27,924 nt of DNA, taken from a virus (Duplodnaviria > Heunggongvirae > Uroviricota > Caudoviricetes). Each line of letters starts with the position of its first letter. Within the stretch, counting starts at the first letter, position 1. The translations under genes were made by a program, and so were the position numbers. The notes beneath the pieces were generated by a model, which saw nothing but the letters and a program-made list of their open reading frames with translations, was not told the origin of the DNA and made no database searches. The stretch is taken from IMG/VR virus record IMGVR_UViG_3300028361_000018. One strand, written 5' to 3'. Positions 776-15,342 of the stretch are shown here, piece by piece.

Positions 776-963
776 TATCTCGAACCTGGGAAATACTCAA
801 TGAACCACTAACTACGCTTGAAGTAGACATTAGAGGCCCTGAGGACATAGCCATTGCGCTGTACTCTTCTTACCACGATCAGTACGTAGACGTTGTGTTA
901 ACTGACAAAATGGCGCGAGAATTTATCGCATTTATTGAACAAGCAAAGGTAGCAACGTCATGA
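772..963 (+). CDS. hypothetical protein, 63 aa
   Basis: ATGA overlaps at both ends. Confidence 0.75.
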   Translation: MISRTWEILNEPLTTLEVDIRGPEDIAIALYSSYHDQYVDVVLTDKMAREFIAFIEQAKVATS

Positions 964-1190
964 AGATAAGAATACTACAACGTAACGCAAATGAGTACAA
1001 ATTACAAAGACGGTATATGGGTATTTGGCTTGACGGCCATACCAACGGCGAGTTTGGAAAGGACGGCGGGTATCAGCCATTCATTGGCAATCAATTAACT
1101 GCTGCTAAGGCTTTCAAAAACCAGCTAGAAAACACATGTGTACACATGCCAACTATATGGGGAGTCAAAGAGAGCGAGAATCTTTATTAA
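960..1190 (+). CDS. hypothetical protein, 76 aa
   Basis: ORF track; ATGA overlap. Confidence 0.75.
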   Translation: MKIRILQRNANEYKLQRRYMGIWLDGHTNGEFGKDGGYQPFIGNQLTAAKAFKNQLENTCVHMPTIWGVKESENLY

Positions 1191-1264
1191 ATAAATGTGA
1201 CATAGTATGTGCAAATTGTCATAGAGAAATACACGCAGAAATGAGGAACGATCAGAAAGCATAA
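1157..1264 (+). pseudogene. HNH endonuclease C-terminal remnant (35 codons)
   Basis: Translates MGSQRERESLLNKCDIVCANCHREIHAEMRNDQKA*; KCDIVCANCHREIH matches the C-terminal half of phage HNH/Zn-finger endonucleases; no N-terminal half in frame. Confidence 0.65.
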
Positions 1265-1267
1265 AGT

Positions 1268-1353
1268 ACCTCTGGTTCCTGACCGCAGCCTCCTAAGCTG
1301 TGTCTTAAAGTTAGGTGGATGGTTTTGAGGTTCGATTCCTCCCAGGGGTTCCA
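1268..1353 (+). tRNA. atypical tRNA-like gene, anticodon CCT (Arg), lacking a D-arm
   Basis: Acceptor ACCTCTG/CAGGGGT + T + CCA; arm GCAGC-CTCCTAA-GCTGT; T-arm GAGG-TTCGATT-CCTC; only 10 nt between acceptor and anticodon stems; 24-nt extra region. Confidence 0.7.
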
Positions 1354-1700
1354 AATACCCAGATACACAATTCATTGTGTATAGCATTGGCAACAGTGTT
1401 ATACACAATGCAGAGTAGACAAGTAGAGTAGCATAGCTAACAACTGGTCAGCCGAGAGTCAAGTAGGCAAAGTATGGCCGTGGTACCCGAAACACAAATG
1501 TCTTGACAATGGGTATTCAGGGATCGGATGCAATTATGCCGACCCAGTATACGGTAGTTTACGGTGGAAATCCGCTAAGTGGTTTGCGACCCAGCTGCAT
1601 TTTTAGTAGTTAGCACATTAGTTTAAAACATGACGGCTCGTAGATGTGTAAAGGGTACAAGGTCGCCGTCCTTCCTTGTACGCCGGACGATACCTAACCA
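1354..1700 (+). ncRNA. candidate large structured ncRNA between two tRNA genes
   Basis: No credible ORF; pairings 1354-1361/1510-1517, a 17-bp GCAA-capped hairpin 1373-1410, 1458-1463/1502-1507, 1436-1441/1609-1614, and a pseudoknot 1632-1681. Confidence 0.6.
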
Positions 1701-1713
1701 GCACCTTGTTATA

Positions 1714-1789
1714 GACGCGGTGGCAGAGAGGCTATGCACCGGATTGCAGCAATCCGTGAACGCCGGTTCGAATCCGGTCCGCGTCTCCA
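1714..1789 (+). tRNA. tRNA-Cys-like gene with a 9-nt anticodon loop (TTGCAGCAA)
   Basis: GACGCGG/CCGCGTC acceptor, U73 discriminator, CCA, GCA/TGC D-stem, GCCGG-TTCGAAT-CCGGT T-arm; loop is 2 nt longer than canonical TTGCAAA. Confidence 0.85.
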
Positions 1790-2422: not shown

Positions 2423-3478
2423 ATGTATATAGATCGAAATCGAGTAATGGCATGGATAGCTAAAATTGAAGAAATTAAAAGTATACCTAACGCAGACAAT
2501 ATCTGTGCTTATCGAGTCGGCGGATGGTGGGTAGTTGATCAAATAGCAAAATACAACCTAGGTGATCTTGCTGTATATTGTTCAATAGATTCTTGGATTC
2601 CAGAGCAGTTGGCACCGTTTCTTAGCAAAGGTGGCGGAGCTAAAACATACGAAGGTATTGTAGGCAACCGACTGCGCACTGTAAAATTGCGAGGACAAGT
2701 TAGTCAAGGACTGTTGCTTCCAGTAAGTGACTTTATTGACGGCAGCGGCGCAGATTTCGAAGGATTAGATCTAAGCGAGAACCTGGGCATTGTAAAATAC
2801 GATCCACCGATTCCAGCTTGTTTAGCAGGTGAAGTACACGGCATGTTCCCTGCGTTTATGAGCAAAACTGATCAGGAACGTGTTCAGAATCTCATCAGTA
2901 TGCCAGACTGGTTTGTGGGAGAGTGGGAAGTTACTATGAAGTTGGATGGTAGCAGCATGACACTGTTCACTCGCGAAGGCACTGCGGGGGTATGTAGTCG
3001 CAATCTTCACCTCAAGGACAATGAGGCCAATAACGGCAACACTCTTGTAACGTTTGCGCGGGGAATGAACTACAGTGAGGCATTGCCTGCTGTTGCTGAC
3101 AAGGTCGGGTTTGACTTTGCTCTCCAGGGAGAGATCATGGGCCCTGGTATTCAGAACAACAGAGAGAAGTTTACCAAGCCTAGATTCTTTGTGTTTGACG
3201 TCTACAATATTAGTGAGGACAGATACTTAAACGCAGGCGAGCGTAGAGCAGTGCTTGATCTAGTCGCAGATTACACCAACACTGTAGAGCACGTACCTGT
3301 GCTAATTGAAGGTCTTTTGATTACTGAAGATCAAGTTAACGTTGATTGGTTCCTTGCTATGGCAGAACGGCCCAGCATTAATCACAAGTTTGCAGAAGGC
3401 ATTGTATTCAAGAACCTAAAGGACGGCGACAAGAGCTTTAAAGTCATCAGTAACAGGTTTTTGCTGAAAGAGGAATAA
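2423..3478 (+). CDS. RNA ligase, DRB0094/Rnl5-type (N-terminal OB domain + nucleotidyltransferase)
   Basis: N-terminal IPNAD...LRTVKLRGQVSQGL; motifs TMKLDGSS (I), LQGEIMG (III), FFVFDV (IIIa), AEGIVFK (IV), FKVIS (V). Confidence 0.9.
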   Translation: MYIDRNRVMAWIAKIEEIKSIPNADNICAYRVGGWWVVDQIAKYNLGDLAVYCSIDSWIPEQLAPFLSKGGGAKTYEGIVGNRLRTVKLRGQVSQGLLLPVSDFIDGSGADFEGLDLSENLGIVKYDPPIPACLAGEVHGMFPAFMSKTDQERVQNLISMPDWFVGEWEVTMKLDGSSMTLFTREGTAGVCSRNLHLKDNEANNGNTLVTFARGMNYSEALPAVADKVGFDFALQGEIMGPGIQNNREKFTKPRFFVFDVYNISEDRYLNAGERRAVLDLVADYTNTVEHVPVLIEGLLITEDQVNVDWFLAMAERPSINHKFAEGIVFKNLKDGDKSFKVISNRFLLKEE

Positions 3479-5418: not shown

Positions 5419-5889
5419 ATGTTAAAGCCAAACTTATATATGCTGATCGGAGTGCCTGGCTCAGGCAAGAGCACCTTTGTAGACGCGCAAGACCATAACT
5501 TTGTACATATCTCAACCGATTATTATGTTGAGAAGTTTGCTAAGAAAATGGGCAAGACCTATAATGAGGTGTTTAGCCTAACCATTAAACGTGCAGACCG
5601 CTTGATGATGCGAGCAGTCCGTCGAGCTCGAGAAAAAAGGCTGGACATTATTTGGGACCAGACCAACACAACAGCTAAGTCACGAGCCAAGAAGCTTGCT
5701 ATGCTACCAGAATATAACAAGACAGCATTATACTTTGAGACACCACCGGCTGATATCTTAGCAGAGAGATTGGCAAATCGCCCGGGCAAAGAGATTCCAG
5801 TCCGTGTGATGAAAAGTATGATTCAACACTTGAAAAAGCCTACCCTGGACGAAGGTTTTACTAAGATACAAGCGTTTACTACATTTTAA
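5419..5889 (+). CDS. P-loop kinase, polynucleotide-kinase/AAA_33-like
   Basis: GVPGSGKST Walker A, ISTD, IIWDQTN, RLANRPGKEIP lid. Confidence 0.85.
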   Translation: MLKPNLYMLIGVPGSGKSTFVDAQDHNFVHISTDYYVEKFAKKMGKTYNEVFSLTIKRADRLMMRAVRRAREKRLDIIWDQTNTTAKSRAKKLAMLPEYNKTALYFETPPADILAERLANRPGKEIPVRVMKSMIQHLKKPTLDEGFTKIQAFTTF

Positions 5890-5899
5890 CAGGAGCACA

Positions 5900-6322
5900 A
5901 TGAAGGAAAAACATTTAAGAGCGTACATGGAGTGCGCTGAGGCGTTTGCTAAATGTAGTGTAGGTGAACGCCTCAAGGTAGGTTGTGTAATAACCAAGTC
6001 CAATGGCGGTACAATAGGCGAAGGCTACAACGGACTGCCTATACATATGGAAGGTAGCTTAGAAGACGGCACAGGCACTACTAAACCGCAAGTAATACAC
6101 GCTGAGCTAAACGCTCTTAAAAAGATTATGCGCAGTCACGAAAGCAGCGTGGGAACTTGGCTGTTTGTTACTCATGCGCCGTGTGAACTTTGCGCAATAG
6201 ATATTTGTGACGCTGGCATCACGCGGGTGTACTATAAAAATGTTTACCGCAACACACTAGGAGTTGACTATCTAGTAGAAAACGGTGTAACTGTGATACA
6301 TTTACCTCCGGAAAACAGTTGA
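5900..6322 (+). CDS. dCMP deaminase-like (cytidine deaminase fold)
   Basis: GYNG, HAELNAL and THAPCELC Zn motifs. Confidence 0.9.
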   Translation: MKEKHLRAYMECAEAFAKCSVGERLKVGCVITKSNGGTIGEGYNGLPIHMEGSLEDGTGTTKPQVIHAELNALKKIMRSHESSVGTWLFVTHAPCELCAIDICDAGITRVYYKNVYRNTLGVDYLVENGVTVIHLPPENS

Positions 6323-6353: not shown

Positions 6354-6932
6354 ATGAAAACTAACAAAACAACAGAGAATACAGCAATGCGTACATTCAT
6401 ATCGTCTGATTTGCACCTGGGGCACCGAAATATTCAAAAGTTTTGTCCTAAGACACGCGGTCACTACACTGACGTAGATAACATGAACGAAGAAATGGTG
6501 CGTGAGTGGAACACTATGATCAACACAGACGACCTTGTGTACATCTTAGGTGATGTTGCGTTTATGCCAGCACCTAAGGCAGTTACATTCTTAAAGCGCA
6601 TGAACGGCCGTAAGATTCTCGTAGAAGGAAATCACGATCAGAAGCAGCTCAAGGACAACAGCTTTCGTGCCTGCTTTGAAGAAATTCACAAGTACCTAGA
6701 CATTCGTTACGCTGATCGAAAGATTGTGATGTTTCACTATCCTATCCATTTTGAATGGGATCAAGCGCATCGAGGATCAATTCACTTTCATGGCCACTTG
6801 CATGGAAGTCCGTCAGGTCTGGAAGGGCACCGAGCACGAGATGTAGGTTACGACGCCACTGGACAAATAGCAATGCTAATGGAAGACGCTATTGCTAGCG
6901 TTGCTAACGGTAAACTACCAGAACACCACTAA
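6354..6932 (+). CDS. calcineurin-like metallophosphoesterase
   Basis: SDLHLGH, LGDV, GNHD, FHYP and FHGHLH motifs. Confidence 0.9.
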
Positions 6933-9558: not shown

Positions 9559-10473
9559 ATGTCGTTTCAGGCACAATTAAAAGAGTACGTCCGAGATAAT
9601 CCAAAGTCGGTCTCGATGAAGCCGTGCGGTGACGGGATTTACATTCTTAAATATAAAAAATCTGTATTTTATAAAGGAACTTGGAATGAGTACCTTGAAG
9701 AGTGTCGCGGCACTATTGTTGACGAGGACTTTAACGTTGTATCTCGGCCATTTACTAAGATTTACAACTACGGAGTTGAAGCAAAATCGCCTATATTAGC
9801 AGACGACACTCCTGTTACTGCATACCGCAAAGTTAACGGATTTATGGTGGCAATGACATGGCACGACGATGATATTTTAGTATCAACTACCGGCAGTACA
9901 TCTAGCCCGTTTGTTGATTACGCAAAGGAAATTATGCTCAAGCACCAAAGCTGGTCAGCGTGGCAAGCCGCTATTAAGATGAACACAGGGTTTACGATGA
10001 TGTTTGAGTGTGTTCACCCAAACGATCCGCACATTGTACCAGAAGACGTAGGCATGTATCTGATCGGATGGCGCGCTAACACTTGGGATAGCCCAGCAAT
10101 AGGTTATGGCGGCGAAATTGCCAAGACTTGGAGAGAGTTTGCGCTTACTTGCTTGAGCTGCGGATACGCAGAATCGTTTGACACCACAGTAGGCGAGCTT
10201 GTGGCACTTAGTAAGACTGTAAAACACGAAGGGTTTGTCGCTTATACACAGGACGGGCAATCTTTTAAAATCAAAAGCCCCTACTACTTGGTTGCAAAAT
10301 ATGTGTCTCGCAACCCAAAAACAGACAAGTTATTGACGCAAAAAGCCAAGCAAATTGTATCCGAAGAGTACTATCCGCTAATCGACCACTTGCGCGGCAA
10401 CATCAATGCGTTTACTGTTCTTAGTGAGCAGGACCGTTTACAATATGTAAGAGAATATCTAGAAGCACAATGA
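9559..10473 (+). CDS. rnlA: RNA ligase, T4 Rnl1-like
   Basis: RPFTKIYN, YRKVNGFM (motif I), MFECVHPNDPHI (III), HEGFV (IV), FKIKSPYY (V). Confidence 0.8.
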   Translation: MSFQAQLKEYVRDNPKSVSMKPCGDGIYILKYKKSVFYKGTWNEYLEECRGTIVDEDFNVVSRPFTKIYNYGVEAKSPILADDTPVTAYRKVNGFMVAMTWHDDDILVSTTGSTSSPFVDYAKEIMLKHQSWSAWQAAIKMNTGFTMMFECVHPNDPHIVPEDVGMYLIGWRANTWDSPAIGYGGEIAKTWREFALTCLSCGYAESFDTTVGELVALSKTVKHEGFVAYTQDGQSFKIKSPYYLVAKYVSRNPKTDKLLTQKAKQIVSEEYYPLIDHLRGNINAFTVLSEQDRLQYVREYLEAQ

Positions 10474-14016: not shown

Positions 14017-15342
14017 ATGAGAACTCAACCACAAGATATCATCGCTCGGCTAGAAGCAGACCCTAGCAAGCTAGCCAAGCAAGCAATTATCCAAGAAGCA
14101 GTAGAAGAGAATCTCACAGAGTTCTTTGACGGGCTGCGAATGGCACTAGATACGCTGTATACATTTGGCGTAAAGAAAGTACCAGTTAAAGAAGAAGCAG
14201 GCGGACAAGGACTTCCGTGGGAGGCGTTTGTTTACTTGGCAGAAAAGTTACACAGCCGTGAACTAACAGGTCACGCAGCTCGTGATGCTATCCTATTGTC
14301 AATGGACACTGCTACACAAGAACAGTGGAATGGATACTACCGTCGTATTTTGATTAAAGATCTGCGCTGCGGAATGAGTGAAAAGACAGTGAACAAGGTA
14401 TGCAAAGCAGCCAAGCGTGAAGACCTTGGCATTCCCATATTTTCTTGTCAATTAGCACACGACTCAGCTAACCACGAAAAAAAGATGAAGGGCAAGAAGC
14501 TGTTGGACGTAAAGTTAGATGGTTGCCGTATGTTAGCAATTGTTAATCCTAATGGCACTGCTGAAACGTTTAGTCGCAACGGCAAAGAATTTACTAACTT
14601 TCCCAAGCTAATTTCGCAGTTTGAAGAATATGCATCTATGCTAGAAGAACCAATGGTGTTTGACGGTGAAGTTATGAGTGGTTCGTTTCAGGATCTAATG
14701 AAGCAGGTCCACCGCAAGGACAACGCACAAACAGATGATGCTAAGTTTTGCGTGTTCGATATGATTCCACTAAAAGACTTCCTACAAGGTAAGTACGAAG
14801 TGCCGCAGTGGCAGCGAGCAGAAGCTCTTGCAAAAACCCTAGACCGAGCTTATAGTAAGGGTATGCTAGAAAACGTAGAGCAAGTAGACCACGAGGAAGT
14901 TGACCTAGATACCGAAGAAGGACAAACTACGTTTGCTAACATCAACAGATCAGCGCTAGAGCTCGGGCTCGAAGGTATTATGGTCAAAGACCCAGACGCT
15001 ATTTACGAATGTAAACGATCACACGCTTGGCTCAAGATGAAACCGTTTATTGAACTTACACTAACTATAGTAGGTGCAGAAGAAGGCACAGGCAAAAACC
15101 TAGGCAAACTGGGTGCATTTGTTTTTGAAGGCGTCGACGACGGAAAACTGATCCGCGTAAACGTGGGCGGCGGGTATTCCGACAAGCAACGCGAAGACTA
15201 CTGGAAATACAAGGACGAAGCAATAGGTCTACTGGGTGAAGTACGAGCAGACGCAGTAACGCAGAATCAAGACGGTAGCTACTCTTTACGCTTTCCAAGA
15301 TTCAAAACATTCCGTGGGCATGTGGCCGGCGAGAAACTGTAA
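14017..15342 (+). CDS. lig: ATP-dependent DNA ligase
   Basis: DVKLDGCR (I), VFDGEV (III), FCVFDMI (IIIa), EGIMVKD (IV), WLKMK (V), SLRFPRF (VI). Confidence 0.95.
   Translation: MRTQPQDIIARLEADPSKLAKQAIIQEAVEENLTEFFDGLRMALDTLYTFGVKKVPVKEEAGGQGLPWEAFVYLAEKLHSRELTGHAARDAILLSMDTATQEQWNGYYRRILIKDLRCGMSEKTVNKVCKAAKREDLGIPIFSCQLAHDSANHEKKMKGKKLLDVKLDGCRMLAIVNPNGTAETFSRNGKEFTNFPKLISQFEEYASMLEEPMVFDGEVMSGSFQDLMKQVHRKDNAQTDDAKFCVFDMIPLKDFLQGKYEVPQWQRAEALAKTLDRAYSKGMLENVEQVDHEEVDLDTEEGQTTFANINRSALELGLEGIMVKDPDAIYECKRSHAWLKMKPFIELTLTIVGAEEGTGKNLGKLGAFVFEGVDDGKLIRVNVGGGYSDKQREDYWKYKDEAIGLLGEVRADAVTQNQDGSYSLRFPRFKTFRGHVAGEKL

What the first reader, a model, noticed from the sequence alone, without database searches (positions are those of the whole stretch)
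1268..1353. D-armless tRNA-like RNA (anticodon CCU) with a displaced D-loop-like segment
Acceptor stem, CCA, T-arm and a 7-nt CU-CCU-AA loop are tRNA-like. Only 10 nt replace the D-arm, and GAC(1281-83)/GTC(1302-04) can lengthen the anticodon helix. A 24-nt segment 3' of that arm contains AGGTGGAT, resembling D-loop GG residues moved to the variable position. Bacterial ArgRS relies on A20 and an A/G discriminator; this RNA has no D-arm and U73. Inference: a tRNA mimic (decoy for anticodon nucleases, or ligase/uncharged-tRNA-sensor substrate) rather than a decoding tRNA.
Basis: partly seen in the sequence, partly recalled or inferred. Interest (0 to 1): 0.7.

Follow-up and report, generated by a model that had tools for sequence, protein, structure and literature searches.

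The report
Phage arginine tRNA with rewired D-arm
This is an intact gene for a phage arginine tRNA (anticodon CCU) that does not fold as the textbook cloverleaf. It belongs to a large, conserved family that gene finders and GenBank annotation miss.

Summary
Window 1268-1353 (+) has an 8-bp acceptor stem, a 4-bp T stem with a standard T loop, a 6-bp anticodon stem with loop CUCCUAA (CCU), U73 and an encoded CCA. It has no D hairpin. Instead CCUGAC (1278-83) pairs with GUUAGG (1310-15) around the anticodon arm, followed by a D-loop-like UGGAU.

I collected 52 distinct relatives. RNAalifold finds the same fold unaided. 97-99% of cells pair, and 19-22 of 24 pairs show compensatory changes. ARAGORN and Rfam miss the gene.

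Relatives occur, unannotated, in cultured phages: Nitrincola 1M3-16, Aeromonas AhSzw-1, Vibrio Va1, Salicola SCTP-2, E. coli Av-05 and Salmonella Arash. BLAST alone finds about 340 phage records. The genes lie inside tRNA arrays. Three complete genomes with 23-34 ordinary tRNAs have no ordinary tRNA-Arg(UCU/CCU).

The best reading is a decoding tRNA-Arg, here for AGG (about 0.65), not a decoy. A decoy or repair-substrate role is not excluded, because RNA ligases, a kinase and a phosphoesterase lie nearby. There are no expression data.

This scan found the same family before on other DNA. I found no paper describing it.

The parts
1268..1275 (+). acceptor stem, 5' strand (ACCUCUGG), 8 bp with 1342-1349
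   Evidence: All 8 pairs show changes on both sides among relatives. Window versus L027: G1274-C1343 becomes A-U.
1276..1277 (+). 2-nt connector UU (the place of nt 8-9)
   Evidence: Alignments A2 and A4. It is UU in most members with an 8-bp acceptor stem.
1278..1283 (+). helix X, 5' strand (CCUGAC), pairs with 1310-1315; stands in for the D stem
   Evidence: MFE and RNAalifold. 4 of 6 pairs have double changes in A2 and 5 of 6 in A4; 99-100% of cells pair.
1284..1289 (+). anticodon stem, 5' strand (6 bp with 1297-1302)
   Evidence: All 6 pairs show double changes.
1290..1296 (+). anticodon loop CUCCUAA; anticodon CCU at 1292-1294 (reads AGG)
   Evidence: Sequence. Loop positions 32, 33, 35-38 are invariant in the Arg-type members.
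1297..1302 (+). anticodon stem, 3' strand
1303..1309 (+). 7-nt bulge UCUUAAA between the anticodon stem and helix X (the place of the variable loop)
   Evidence: Unpaired in every prediction. It is 6-13 nt long, starts with a conserved C-rich stretch and is A-rich in relatives.
1310..1315 (+). helix X, 3' strand (GUUAGG)
1316..1326 (+). connector UGGAUGGUUUU; UGGAU (1316-1320) resembles the D loop (G18 G19 A20)
   Evidence: GGA is present in 46 of 46 Arg-type members, including 12 found without fixing this motif. Ordinary phage tRNA-Arg genes in session loci have D loops with CUGGAUA or GUGGAUA.
1327..1341 (+). T arm: 4-bp stem GAGG/CCUC and T loop UUCGAUU (1331-1337)
1342..1349 (+). acceptor stem, 3' strand (CCAGGGGU)
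1350..1353 (+). discriminator U1350 and encoded CCA 1351-1353
   Evidence: Sequence. CCA is encoded in 36 of 46 Arg-type members.

Best explanation
Window 1268-1353 encodes a working, structurally rewired tRNA-Arg(CCU). It is transcribed with the phage's tRNA-type genes and trimmed at A1268 and at the encoded CCA. I infer that it folds into an L shape built from a three-way junction, not a cloverleaf. The 8-bp acceptor stem stacks on the 4-bp T stem, giving the usual 12 bp. Helix X (1278-83 with 1310-15) stacks on the 6-bp anticodon stem and takes the place of the D stem. The segment after helix X (UGGAU...) takes the place of the D loop: its GG docks on the T loop and its A lies where A20 lies. 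In effect, one D-stem strand and the D loop lie after the anticodon arm, not before it. ArgRS would then charge it through C35, U36 and the A20-like base, and it would read AGG codons of phage genes. Shown here: the fold, its conservation, the Arg anticodons, and its place in tRNA arrays that lack an ordinary AGR-reading tRNA. Inferred: the 3D shape, processing, charging and decoding.
For: 1) Fold. RNAalifold recovers exactly this structure on a MAFFT alignment. 99.1% of cells pair, 19 of 24 pairs have double changes, 0 of 500 shuffles reach this, and slid controls pair 32-52%. With 41 sequences fitted to the model: 97.5% paired and 22 of 24 pairs with double changes.
2) Purifying selection in the nearest relatives. 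The window and L027 differ at 8 of 86 positions: one compensatory pair, two wobble-compatible changes and four unpaired positions. No change breaks a pair.
3) tRNA-like constraints in 52 distinct members. Anticodons are UCU 41, CCU 5, GUA 5 and UAU 1. The Arg loops are CU-YCU-AA. The discriminator in the Arg type is G 20, A 16, U 10 and never C. All 6 Tyr- or Ile-type members have A73. CCA is encoded in 36 of 46 Arg-type members.
4) GGA is present in 46 of 46 Arg-type connectors despite different contexts: UGGAUGG, CGGACGG, AAGGAGCUGA, UCUGGAUGCUGA. Ordinary phage tRNA-Arg genes show CUGGAUA or GUGGAUA in the D loop.
5) Genomic place. The genes lie on the same strand inside tRNA arrays. None of 11 arrays with 7 or more tRNAs that carry the rewired gene has an ordinary Arg(UCU) or Arg(CCU). 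In complete genomes, Aeromonas phage AhSzw-1 has 34 ordinary tRNAs with only Arg-ACG, plus tandem rewired CCU and UCU genes. Vibrio phage Va1 has 23 with only Arg-ACG. Salicola phage SCTP-2 has 24 and no Arg.
6) Demand. The phage uses AGA at 13.6 and AGG at 4.3 per 1000 codons, about 40% of its Arg codons.
7) An 8/4 split of the acceptor and T stems is already known to work in phage tRNAs (PMC5389517).
Against: There are no expression, processing or charging data; no RNA run holds this DNA. U73 in the window's clade is not the A/G73 that bacterial tRNA-Arg usually has (established knowledge of ArgRS identity). Whether ArgRS, EF-Tu and the ribosome accept this topology is untested. The absence of ordinary tRNA-Arg(UCU) from arrays is only suggestive, because just 2 of 13 control arrays without the rewired gene have Arg(UCU) and 2 more have Arg(CCU). 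In Stieleria the Tyr-type member is an extra copy beside an ordinary tRNA-Tyr, so at least some members are not essential decoders. The window's other tRNA-type gene (1714-1789) has an abnormal 9-nt anticodon loop, and RNA-repair genes lie close by. Both fit a defence-related role as well.
Confidence: 0.65

Rival explanations
1. tRNA mimic. The RNA is not used in translation. It soaks up or is sacrificed to a host tRNA-targeting nuclease, serves as a substrate for the phage's RNA ligase/kinase repair set, or fools a sensor of uncharged tRNA.
For: RNA ligase (2423-3478, PF09414), a PNK-like kinase (5419-5889), a phosphoesterase (6354-6932) and an Rnl1/gp63-like ligase (9559-10473) lie within 9 kb. 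These genes are syntenic in the window's clade. The clade has U73. The neighbouring tRNA-type gene has an aberrant anticodon loop. A conserved anticodon loop is also what a decoy for an anticodon nuclease would need.
Against: A decoy has no need for a discriminator that avoids C and is A/G in 36 of 46 members, for anticodon pairs that match codons (tandem CCU plus UCU in AhSzw-1), for a 12-bp acceptor/T stack, or for filling the only AGR slot in otherwise near-complete tRNA sets. The repair genes were not found beside other members, though those loci are short.
Confidence: 0.2
2. Another non-decoding job for a tRNA-shaped RNA, such as a regulatory RNA, a primer or a processing signal within the polycistronic tRNA-type transcript.
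For: It directly precedes a conserved, ORF-free 360-nt stretch (1354-1713) that is kept in L142 and L027. tRNA-like stable RNAs of unknown role exist in phage tRNA clusters (established knowledge: T4 rnaC and rnaD).
Against: Most relatives have no such neighbour and stand among ordinary tRNA genes. A processing signal would not need a strictly kept Arg anticodon loop.
Confidence: 0.08
3. A decaying tRNA-Arg pseudogene that lost its D-arm by deletion, or a DNA-level site (HNH homing target, attachment site) that only looks like a tRNA.
For: An HNH-like remnant ends 4 nt upstream (1196-1264). Standard finders reject the gene.
Against: All 24 pairs are intact in the window. The same fold is kept with compensatory changes in 52 distinct sequences from unrelated phages and in Planctomycetota. 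L027 has the gene without the HNH remnant.
Confidence: 0.03

Closest known systems
Ordinary bacterial and phage tRNA-Arg(UCU/CCU), cloverleaf, Rfam RF00005
   Same: Acceptor stem with CCA, a T arm with UUCGAUU, a 7-nt anticodon loop CU-YCU-AA, a UGGAU motif like the tRNA-Arg D loop, a place in phage tRNA arrays, and a presumed role in reading AGA/AGG.
   Different: No D hairpin. One strand of the D-stem equivalent and the D-loop-like segment lie 3' of the anticodon arm, so the RNA is a three-way junction. The acceptor/T split is 8/4 rather than 7/5, and the anticodon stem has 6 bp. RF00005 and ARAGORN do not report it.
allo-tRNAs and (8/4) phage tRNA-Ser and tRNA-His (Mukai et al. 2017, PMC5389517); tRNA-Sec (RF01852)
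   Same: A 12-bp acceptor/T branch split 8/4, a 6-bp anticodon stem, a total length of about 85 nt, and occurrence in phages. tRNA-Sec is the best Rfam match, though below threshold (23.2 bits). allo-tRNA-like genes lie next to the Tyr-type members in Planctomycetota.
   Different: Those RNAs keep a D hairpin (long stem, tetraloop) and a hairpin variable arm. Here neither hairpin exists, and the two regions pair with each other instead. The anticodons are Arg, Tyr and Ile, not Ser, His or Sec.
Metazoan mitochondrial D-armless tRNAs, for example mt-tRNA-Ser(AGY) (established knowledge; review PMC4394434 listed)
   Same: No D hairpin, a three-way junction, and still a decoding tRNA.
   Different: The mitochondrial RNAs are shrunken (about 60 nt), have weak T loops and work with a co-evolved translation system. 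This RNA is full length, keeps a canonical T loop and GG motif, replaces the D stem with a long-range helix, and must work with a bacterial host's machinery.
tRNA mimics with altered threading (tmRNA tRNA-like domain, plant-virus tRNA-like structures, bacterial YrlA); established knowledge
   Same: tRNA-like shape reached through a non-tRNA chain path.
   Different: Those lack a normal anticodon arm or a normal acceptor stem and are not adaptors for sense codons. This RNA has both, in tRNA arrays.

Membership tests
Canonical tRNA (Rfam RF00005 / ARAGORN cloverleaf) | Score at or above the family threshold, or detection by a standard finder | tested here: not met
   There is no RF00005 match at gathering score on 1268-1353, and ARAGORN in bacterial mode reports nothing there. 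RF00005 at E<=0.001 also misses the relatives in AhSzw-1, Va1 and SCTP-2.
Canonical tRNA (Rfam RF00005 / ARAGORN cloverleaf) | D-arm hairpin between the acceptor and anticodon stems | tested here: not met
   Only 8 nt (1276-83) lie there, and 6 of them pair with 1310-15.
Canonical tRNA (Rfam RF00005 / ARAGORN cloverleaf) | Acceptor stem with a 3' discriminator and CCA; T arm with a T loop; 7-nt anticodon loop with U33 and a purine at 37 | tested here: met
   Sequence; covariation in all three helices.
Canonical tRNA (functional definition) | Aminoacylation and decoding on the ribosome | not testable with these tools
   No RNA data; this needs bench work.
tRNA-Sec (RF01852) | Gathering score of 47 bits, UCA anticodon, long D stem | tested here: not met
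   23.2 bits, anticodon CCU, and the D-arm region is skipped in the alignment.
allo-tRNA / (8/4) tRNAs (Mukai 2017) | 12-bp acceptor/T branch split 8/4 | tested here: met
   8 bp plus 4 bp. The 8th pair G1275-C1342 covaries (GC 16, UA 1, UG 1). A sister group has 7 bp, an unpaired C and 4 bp.
allo-tRNA / (8/4) tRNAs (Mukai 2017) | tRNA-Sec-like D stem-loop and a hairpin variable arm | tested here: not met
   Neither hairpin is present; definition from PMC5389517.
   92.9 bits over the full model length, though the window is one of the seeds. Relatives not in the seed score 45-88 bits.
Mitochondrial D-armless tRNA | Organellar origin, reduced size, D-replacement loop | tested here: not met
   Phage contig, 86 nt, canonical T loop. 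ARAGORN's mitochondrial mode gives a different fold at 1266-1334, which does not include the covariation-supported acceptor 3' strand (1342-1349).

The most novel reading that the evidence does not exclude
The rewired core is an adaptation, not an accident. The RNA would be a fully functional tRNA-Arg that is charged by the host ArgRS. Its changed threading would make it a poor substrate for a host tRNA-targeting defence, such as an anticodon or core nuclease, or tRNA surveillance. The phage could then keep AGR decoding while host tRNA is destroyed. In this window it would act together with the adjacent RNA ligase, kinase and phosphoesterase repair genes as one counter-defence island. It would also be the first natural topological isomer of tRNA shown to work on bacterial ribosomes.
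Probability: 0.2. Interest if true: 0.9.

Novelty: new variant of a known kind. Interest (0 to 1): 0.78.

Why it matters
The cloverleaf is treated as universal for cytosolic-type tRNAs. These RNAs appear to reach tRNA function with a different chain path, and they occur in hundreds of phages, including phages of E. coli, Salmonella, Vibrio, Acinetobacter and Aeromonas.

If they are charged and decode, several things follow:
- They show how much the tRNA core can be re-threaded while still serving RNase P, ArgRS, EF-Tu and the ribosome.
- They explain missing AGA/AGG tRNAs in phage tRNA sets.
- They expose a blind spot in tRNAscan-type annotation.
- They offer a natural scaffold for orthogonal tRNAs.
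- They make it possible to test whether phages reshape tRNAs to escape tRNA-targeting defences.

Cultured hosts make all of this directly testable.

Tried and rejected
- ARAGORN in relaxed and mitochondrial modes gives other, inconsistent folds: mtRNA(cct) at 1266-1334, and an 'intron' tRNA-Leu. I rejected these against the covariation-supported fold.
- Exact-pattern scans with AAAGTTAGGTGGATGG, CCTGACNGCNGNCTNCTAA and AGGTGGATGGN6GGTTCNANTCC returned mostly chance hits and only L027 and Nitrincola as true relatives.
- The look-up of sequencing runs listed no RNA holder. I did not run read laying, since only DNA contigs were on offer.
- The complementarity control was weak: 0 of 11 arrays with the rewired gene and 2 of 13 without it carry an ordinary Arg(UCU).
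- tblastn for the window's RNA-repair proteins next to other family members found them only in the window's own clade.
- I looked for a sole-copy case in bacteria. Stieleria has an ordinary tRNA-Tyr as well.
- Seven full-text literature searches found no description of this architecture.
- Pfam gave no hit for the HNH-like remnant.
- The single-sequence folding z-score is not significant.
- I could not confirm with BLAST that Felix O1 itself carries a member, as earlier notes of this scan claim.

Full report
WHAT IS THERE. The window is the minus strand of a 92.6-kb IMG/VR phage record (41% G+C; CheckV estimates 26% complete, so the phage is probably large) from lake or salt-lake metagenomes. 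ARAGORN and Rfam at gathering score report only the gene at 1714-1789. At a permissive threshold, the best Rfam match on the element is tRNA-Sec at 23.2 bits, well under its 47-bit cut-off.

CCUGAC (1278-83) pairs with GUUAGG (1310-15), so a 6-bp helix, which I call X, encloses the 6-bp anticodon arm. A 7-nt bulge (1303-09) lies on the 3' side. The layout is: 8-bp acceptor stem, UU, X 5' strand, anticodon arm (loop CUCCUAA), bulge, X 3' strand, UGGAUGGUUUU, 4-bp T stem, UUCGAUU, T stem, acceptor stem, U73, CCA.

IT IS A FAMILY, NOT A WRECK. BLAST against cultured phages hit an unannotated stretch of Nitrincola phage 1M3-16, next to its annotated tRNA-Met. Pattern scans of viral, metagenome and genome collections followed. 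I then searched with a covariance model built from 18 sequences (R1; searches). Together these gave 52 distinct members.

On a plain MAFFT alignment, RNAalifold predicts exactly the same 24 pairs unaided. 99.1% of cells form standard pairs and 19 of 24 pairs show changes on both sides. No shuffle out of 500 reaches the observed values, and sliding the partners by 1-3 columns drops pairing to 32-52%. With 41 sequences aligned to the model, the figures are 97.5% and 22 of 24 pairs; that alignment leans towards the model.

Helix X itself covaries: CCUGAC/GUUAGG, CCCGAC/GUUGGG, CCCCGC/GUGGGG, CCCUUC/GAAGGG and CUCUAC/GUAGAG. The nearest relatives (L142, L132, L027) differ from the window only by compensatory, wobble-compatible or unpaired changes.

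There are two sub-designs: 8 bp plus 4 bp, as in the window, and 7 bp plus one unpaired C plus 4 bp. Both give a 12-layer acceptor/T stack.

WHAT THE FAMILY LOOKS LIKE.
- Anticodons: UCU 41, CCU 5, GUA 5, UAU 1.
- Arg-type loops are CU-YCU-AA.
- The Arg-type discriminator is G 20, A 16, U 10 and never C. All six Tyr- and Ile-type members have A73.
- CCA is encoded in 36 of 46 Arg-type genes and absent in the rest, as expected of genes that rely on CCA addition.
- The connector after helix X always contains GGA in the Arg type. This holds for the 12 members found without fixing that motif (CGGACGG, AAGGAGCUGA, AAGGAGGUAU, UCUGGAUGCUGA).
That is G18 G19 A20, and A20 is the known ArgRS identity base (established knowledge).

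The segment 'X 3' strand plus UGGAU' therefore reads like 'D-stem 5' strand plus D loop' placed after the anticodon arm.

WHERE THE GENES SIT. Members lie on the same strand inside phage tRNA arrays. None of 11 arrays with at least 7 tRNAs that carry the rewired gene has an ordinary tRNA-Arg(UCU/CCU). The control is weak, however: 2 of 13 arrays without it have Arg(UCU).

Three complete genomes are more telling.
- Aeromonas phage AhSzw-1 (T5-like) has 34 ordinary tRNAs with only Arg(ACG), plus two tandem rewired genes, CCU and UCU.
- Vibrio phage Va1 has 23 ordinary tRNAs with only Arg(ACG), plus one rewired UCU gene.
- Salicola phage SCTP-2 has 24 ordinary tRNAs and no Arg, plus one rewired UCU gene. 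I inspected the Rfam-only extra hits and none is an Arg(YCU).

BLAST with the AhSzw-1 or Av-05 copies finds about 340 phage records. These include about 300 T5-like Vibrio phages, about 30 T4-like Acinetobacter phages, E. coli O157 phage Av-05 and Salmonella phage Arash. In the rows listed the gene is marked 'none' or lies under a 'hypothetical protein'.

Tyr-type members also occur in Planctomycetota genomes, inside accessory tRNA arrays. Stieleria keeps an ordinary tRNA-Tyr elsewhere.

HOW IT MOST LIKELY WORKS. I read the gene as a decoding tRNA-Arg for AGG (confidence about 0.65). The phage uses AGA at 13.6 and AGG at 4.3 per 1000 codons, about 40% of its Arg codons. The record holds only three ordinary tRNAs: the gene ARAGORN labels Leu-CAG, plus Cys and Asn.

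The following is inferred, not shown. X stacks on the anticodon stem, giving 12 bp where a normal tRNA has anticodon stem, the 26-44 pair and the D stem. The GG of the connector docks on the T loop to form the elbow. The bulge lies where the variable loop lies. The 8+4 stack presents the usual 12 bp to RNase P and EF-Tu. An 8/4 split is already documented for phage tRNAs (PMC5389517).

RIVALS. A decoy or repair-substrate role (about 0.2) is kept alive by the window's context. Close downstream lie an Rnl2-type RNA ligase (2423-3478), a PNK-like kinase (5419-5889), a phosphoesterase (6354-6932), an Rnl1/gp63-like ligase (9559-10473) and a DNA ligase. U73 and the abnormal neighbour at 1714-1789 point the same way. 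That synteny is limited to the window's own clade. The discriminator pattern, the codon-matched anticodon pairs and the array slot are not what a decoy needs. A pseudogene or a DNA-site reading is excluded by the covariation.

KNOWN OR NEW. Seven full-text searches found no description of this architecture. The allo-tRNA paper describes 8/4 and 9/3 tRNAs that keep the D hairpin. The Felix O1 genome paper notes that a tRNA for Arg[AGA] was expected but not found (PMC3185647).

Earlier follow-ups of this same scan had already met the family on other DNA and reached the same structural reading.

I class it as a new variant of a known kind: a tRNA with a new topology. The window's copy is one more member, of the rarer CCU type, with U73 and in a phage that also carries an RNA-repair set.

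LIMITS. There are no RNA data. The GGUGGAUGG pattern used for most of the collection biases the conservation seen in the connector, though a second pattern and BLAST partly corrected this. tRNAscan-SE could not be run.

Noticed in passing
window 1714-1789 (+): The gene ARAGORN calls tRNA-Leu(CAG) (Rfam tRNA, 47.5 bits) has no long variable arm, has U73 and CCA, and has an abnormal anticodon loop. The loop is either 9 nt (UUGCAGCAA) or a 6-bp stem with a 5-nt loop. L027 keeps the 9-nt loop. The L142 orthologue has a normal 7-nt loop UUGCAAA (GCA, Cys) and a longer variable region. The 'Leu' label is doubtful.
   Followed up: partly
window 1354-1713 (+): An ORF-free 360-nt stretch between the two tRNA-type genes is conserved in L142 and, with many substitutions and a roughly 400-nt insertion, in L027. 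It looks like a structured RNA and is the subject of another finding (e1-5428516).
   Followed up: partly
window 960-1264 (+): The ORF at 960-1190 and the short frame at 1196-1264 (ending CDIVCANCHREIHAEMRNDQKA, an HNH-like CxxC...H motif) look like a split or remnant homing endonuclease that ends 4 nt before the tRNA. It is present in L142 and absent in L027. Positions 1186-1236 are 86-88% identical to Lak megaphages. Pfam gave no hit.
   Followed up: partly
window 2423-3478, 5419-5889, 6354-6932, 9559-10473, 14017-15342 (+): An RNA-repair-type gene set sits next to the tRNA-type genes: an Rnl2-type RNA ligase with an OB fold, an AAA_33/PNK-like kinase, a phosphoesterase, an Rnl1 (T4 gp63)-like ligase and an ATP-dependent DNA ligase. 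A dCMP deaminase lies at 5900-6322.
   Followed up: partly
L002 (Nitrincola phage 1M3-16) about 970-1095: A 12-bp stem (GGAAGGCTCTGG/CCAGAGCCTTCC) encloses two T-arm-like hairpins. It is unannotated and resembles the two-T-arm tRNA-like family of finding e1-4038615.
   Followed up: no
L185:4524-4607 and L190:6128-6212 (Planctomycetota MAGs): allo-tRNA-like genes lie within a few hundred bases of the rewired Tyr-type genes. They have 9/3 and 8/4 acceptor/T stems, a 6-bp D stem with a tetraloop, and a hairpin variable arm.
   Followed up: no
L071:848-936, L051:2202-2293, L157:673-761: The rewired design occurs in phage contigs with other anticodons: GUA (Tyr) and UAU (Ile, reading AUA). L071 and L157 each carry two rewired genes of different anticodon.
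   Followed up: partly
L334 (Aeromonas phage AhSzw-1, 58-72 kb): ARAGORN lists a CUA-anticodon (amber suppressor-type, 'Pyl') tRNA and one with an undetermined anticodon in the 34-gene array. Three further Rfam-only tRNA hits have odd anticodon regions.
   Followed up: no
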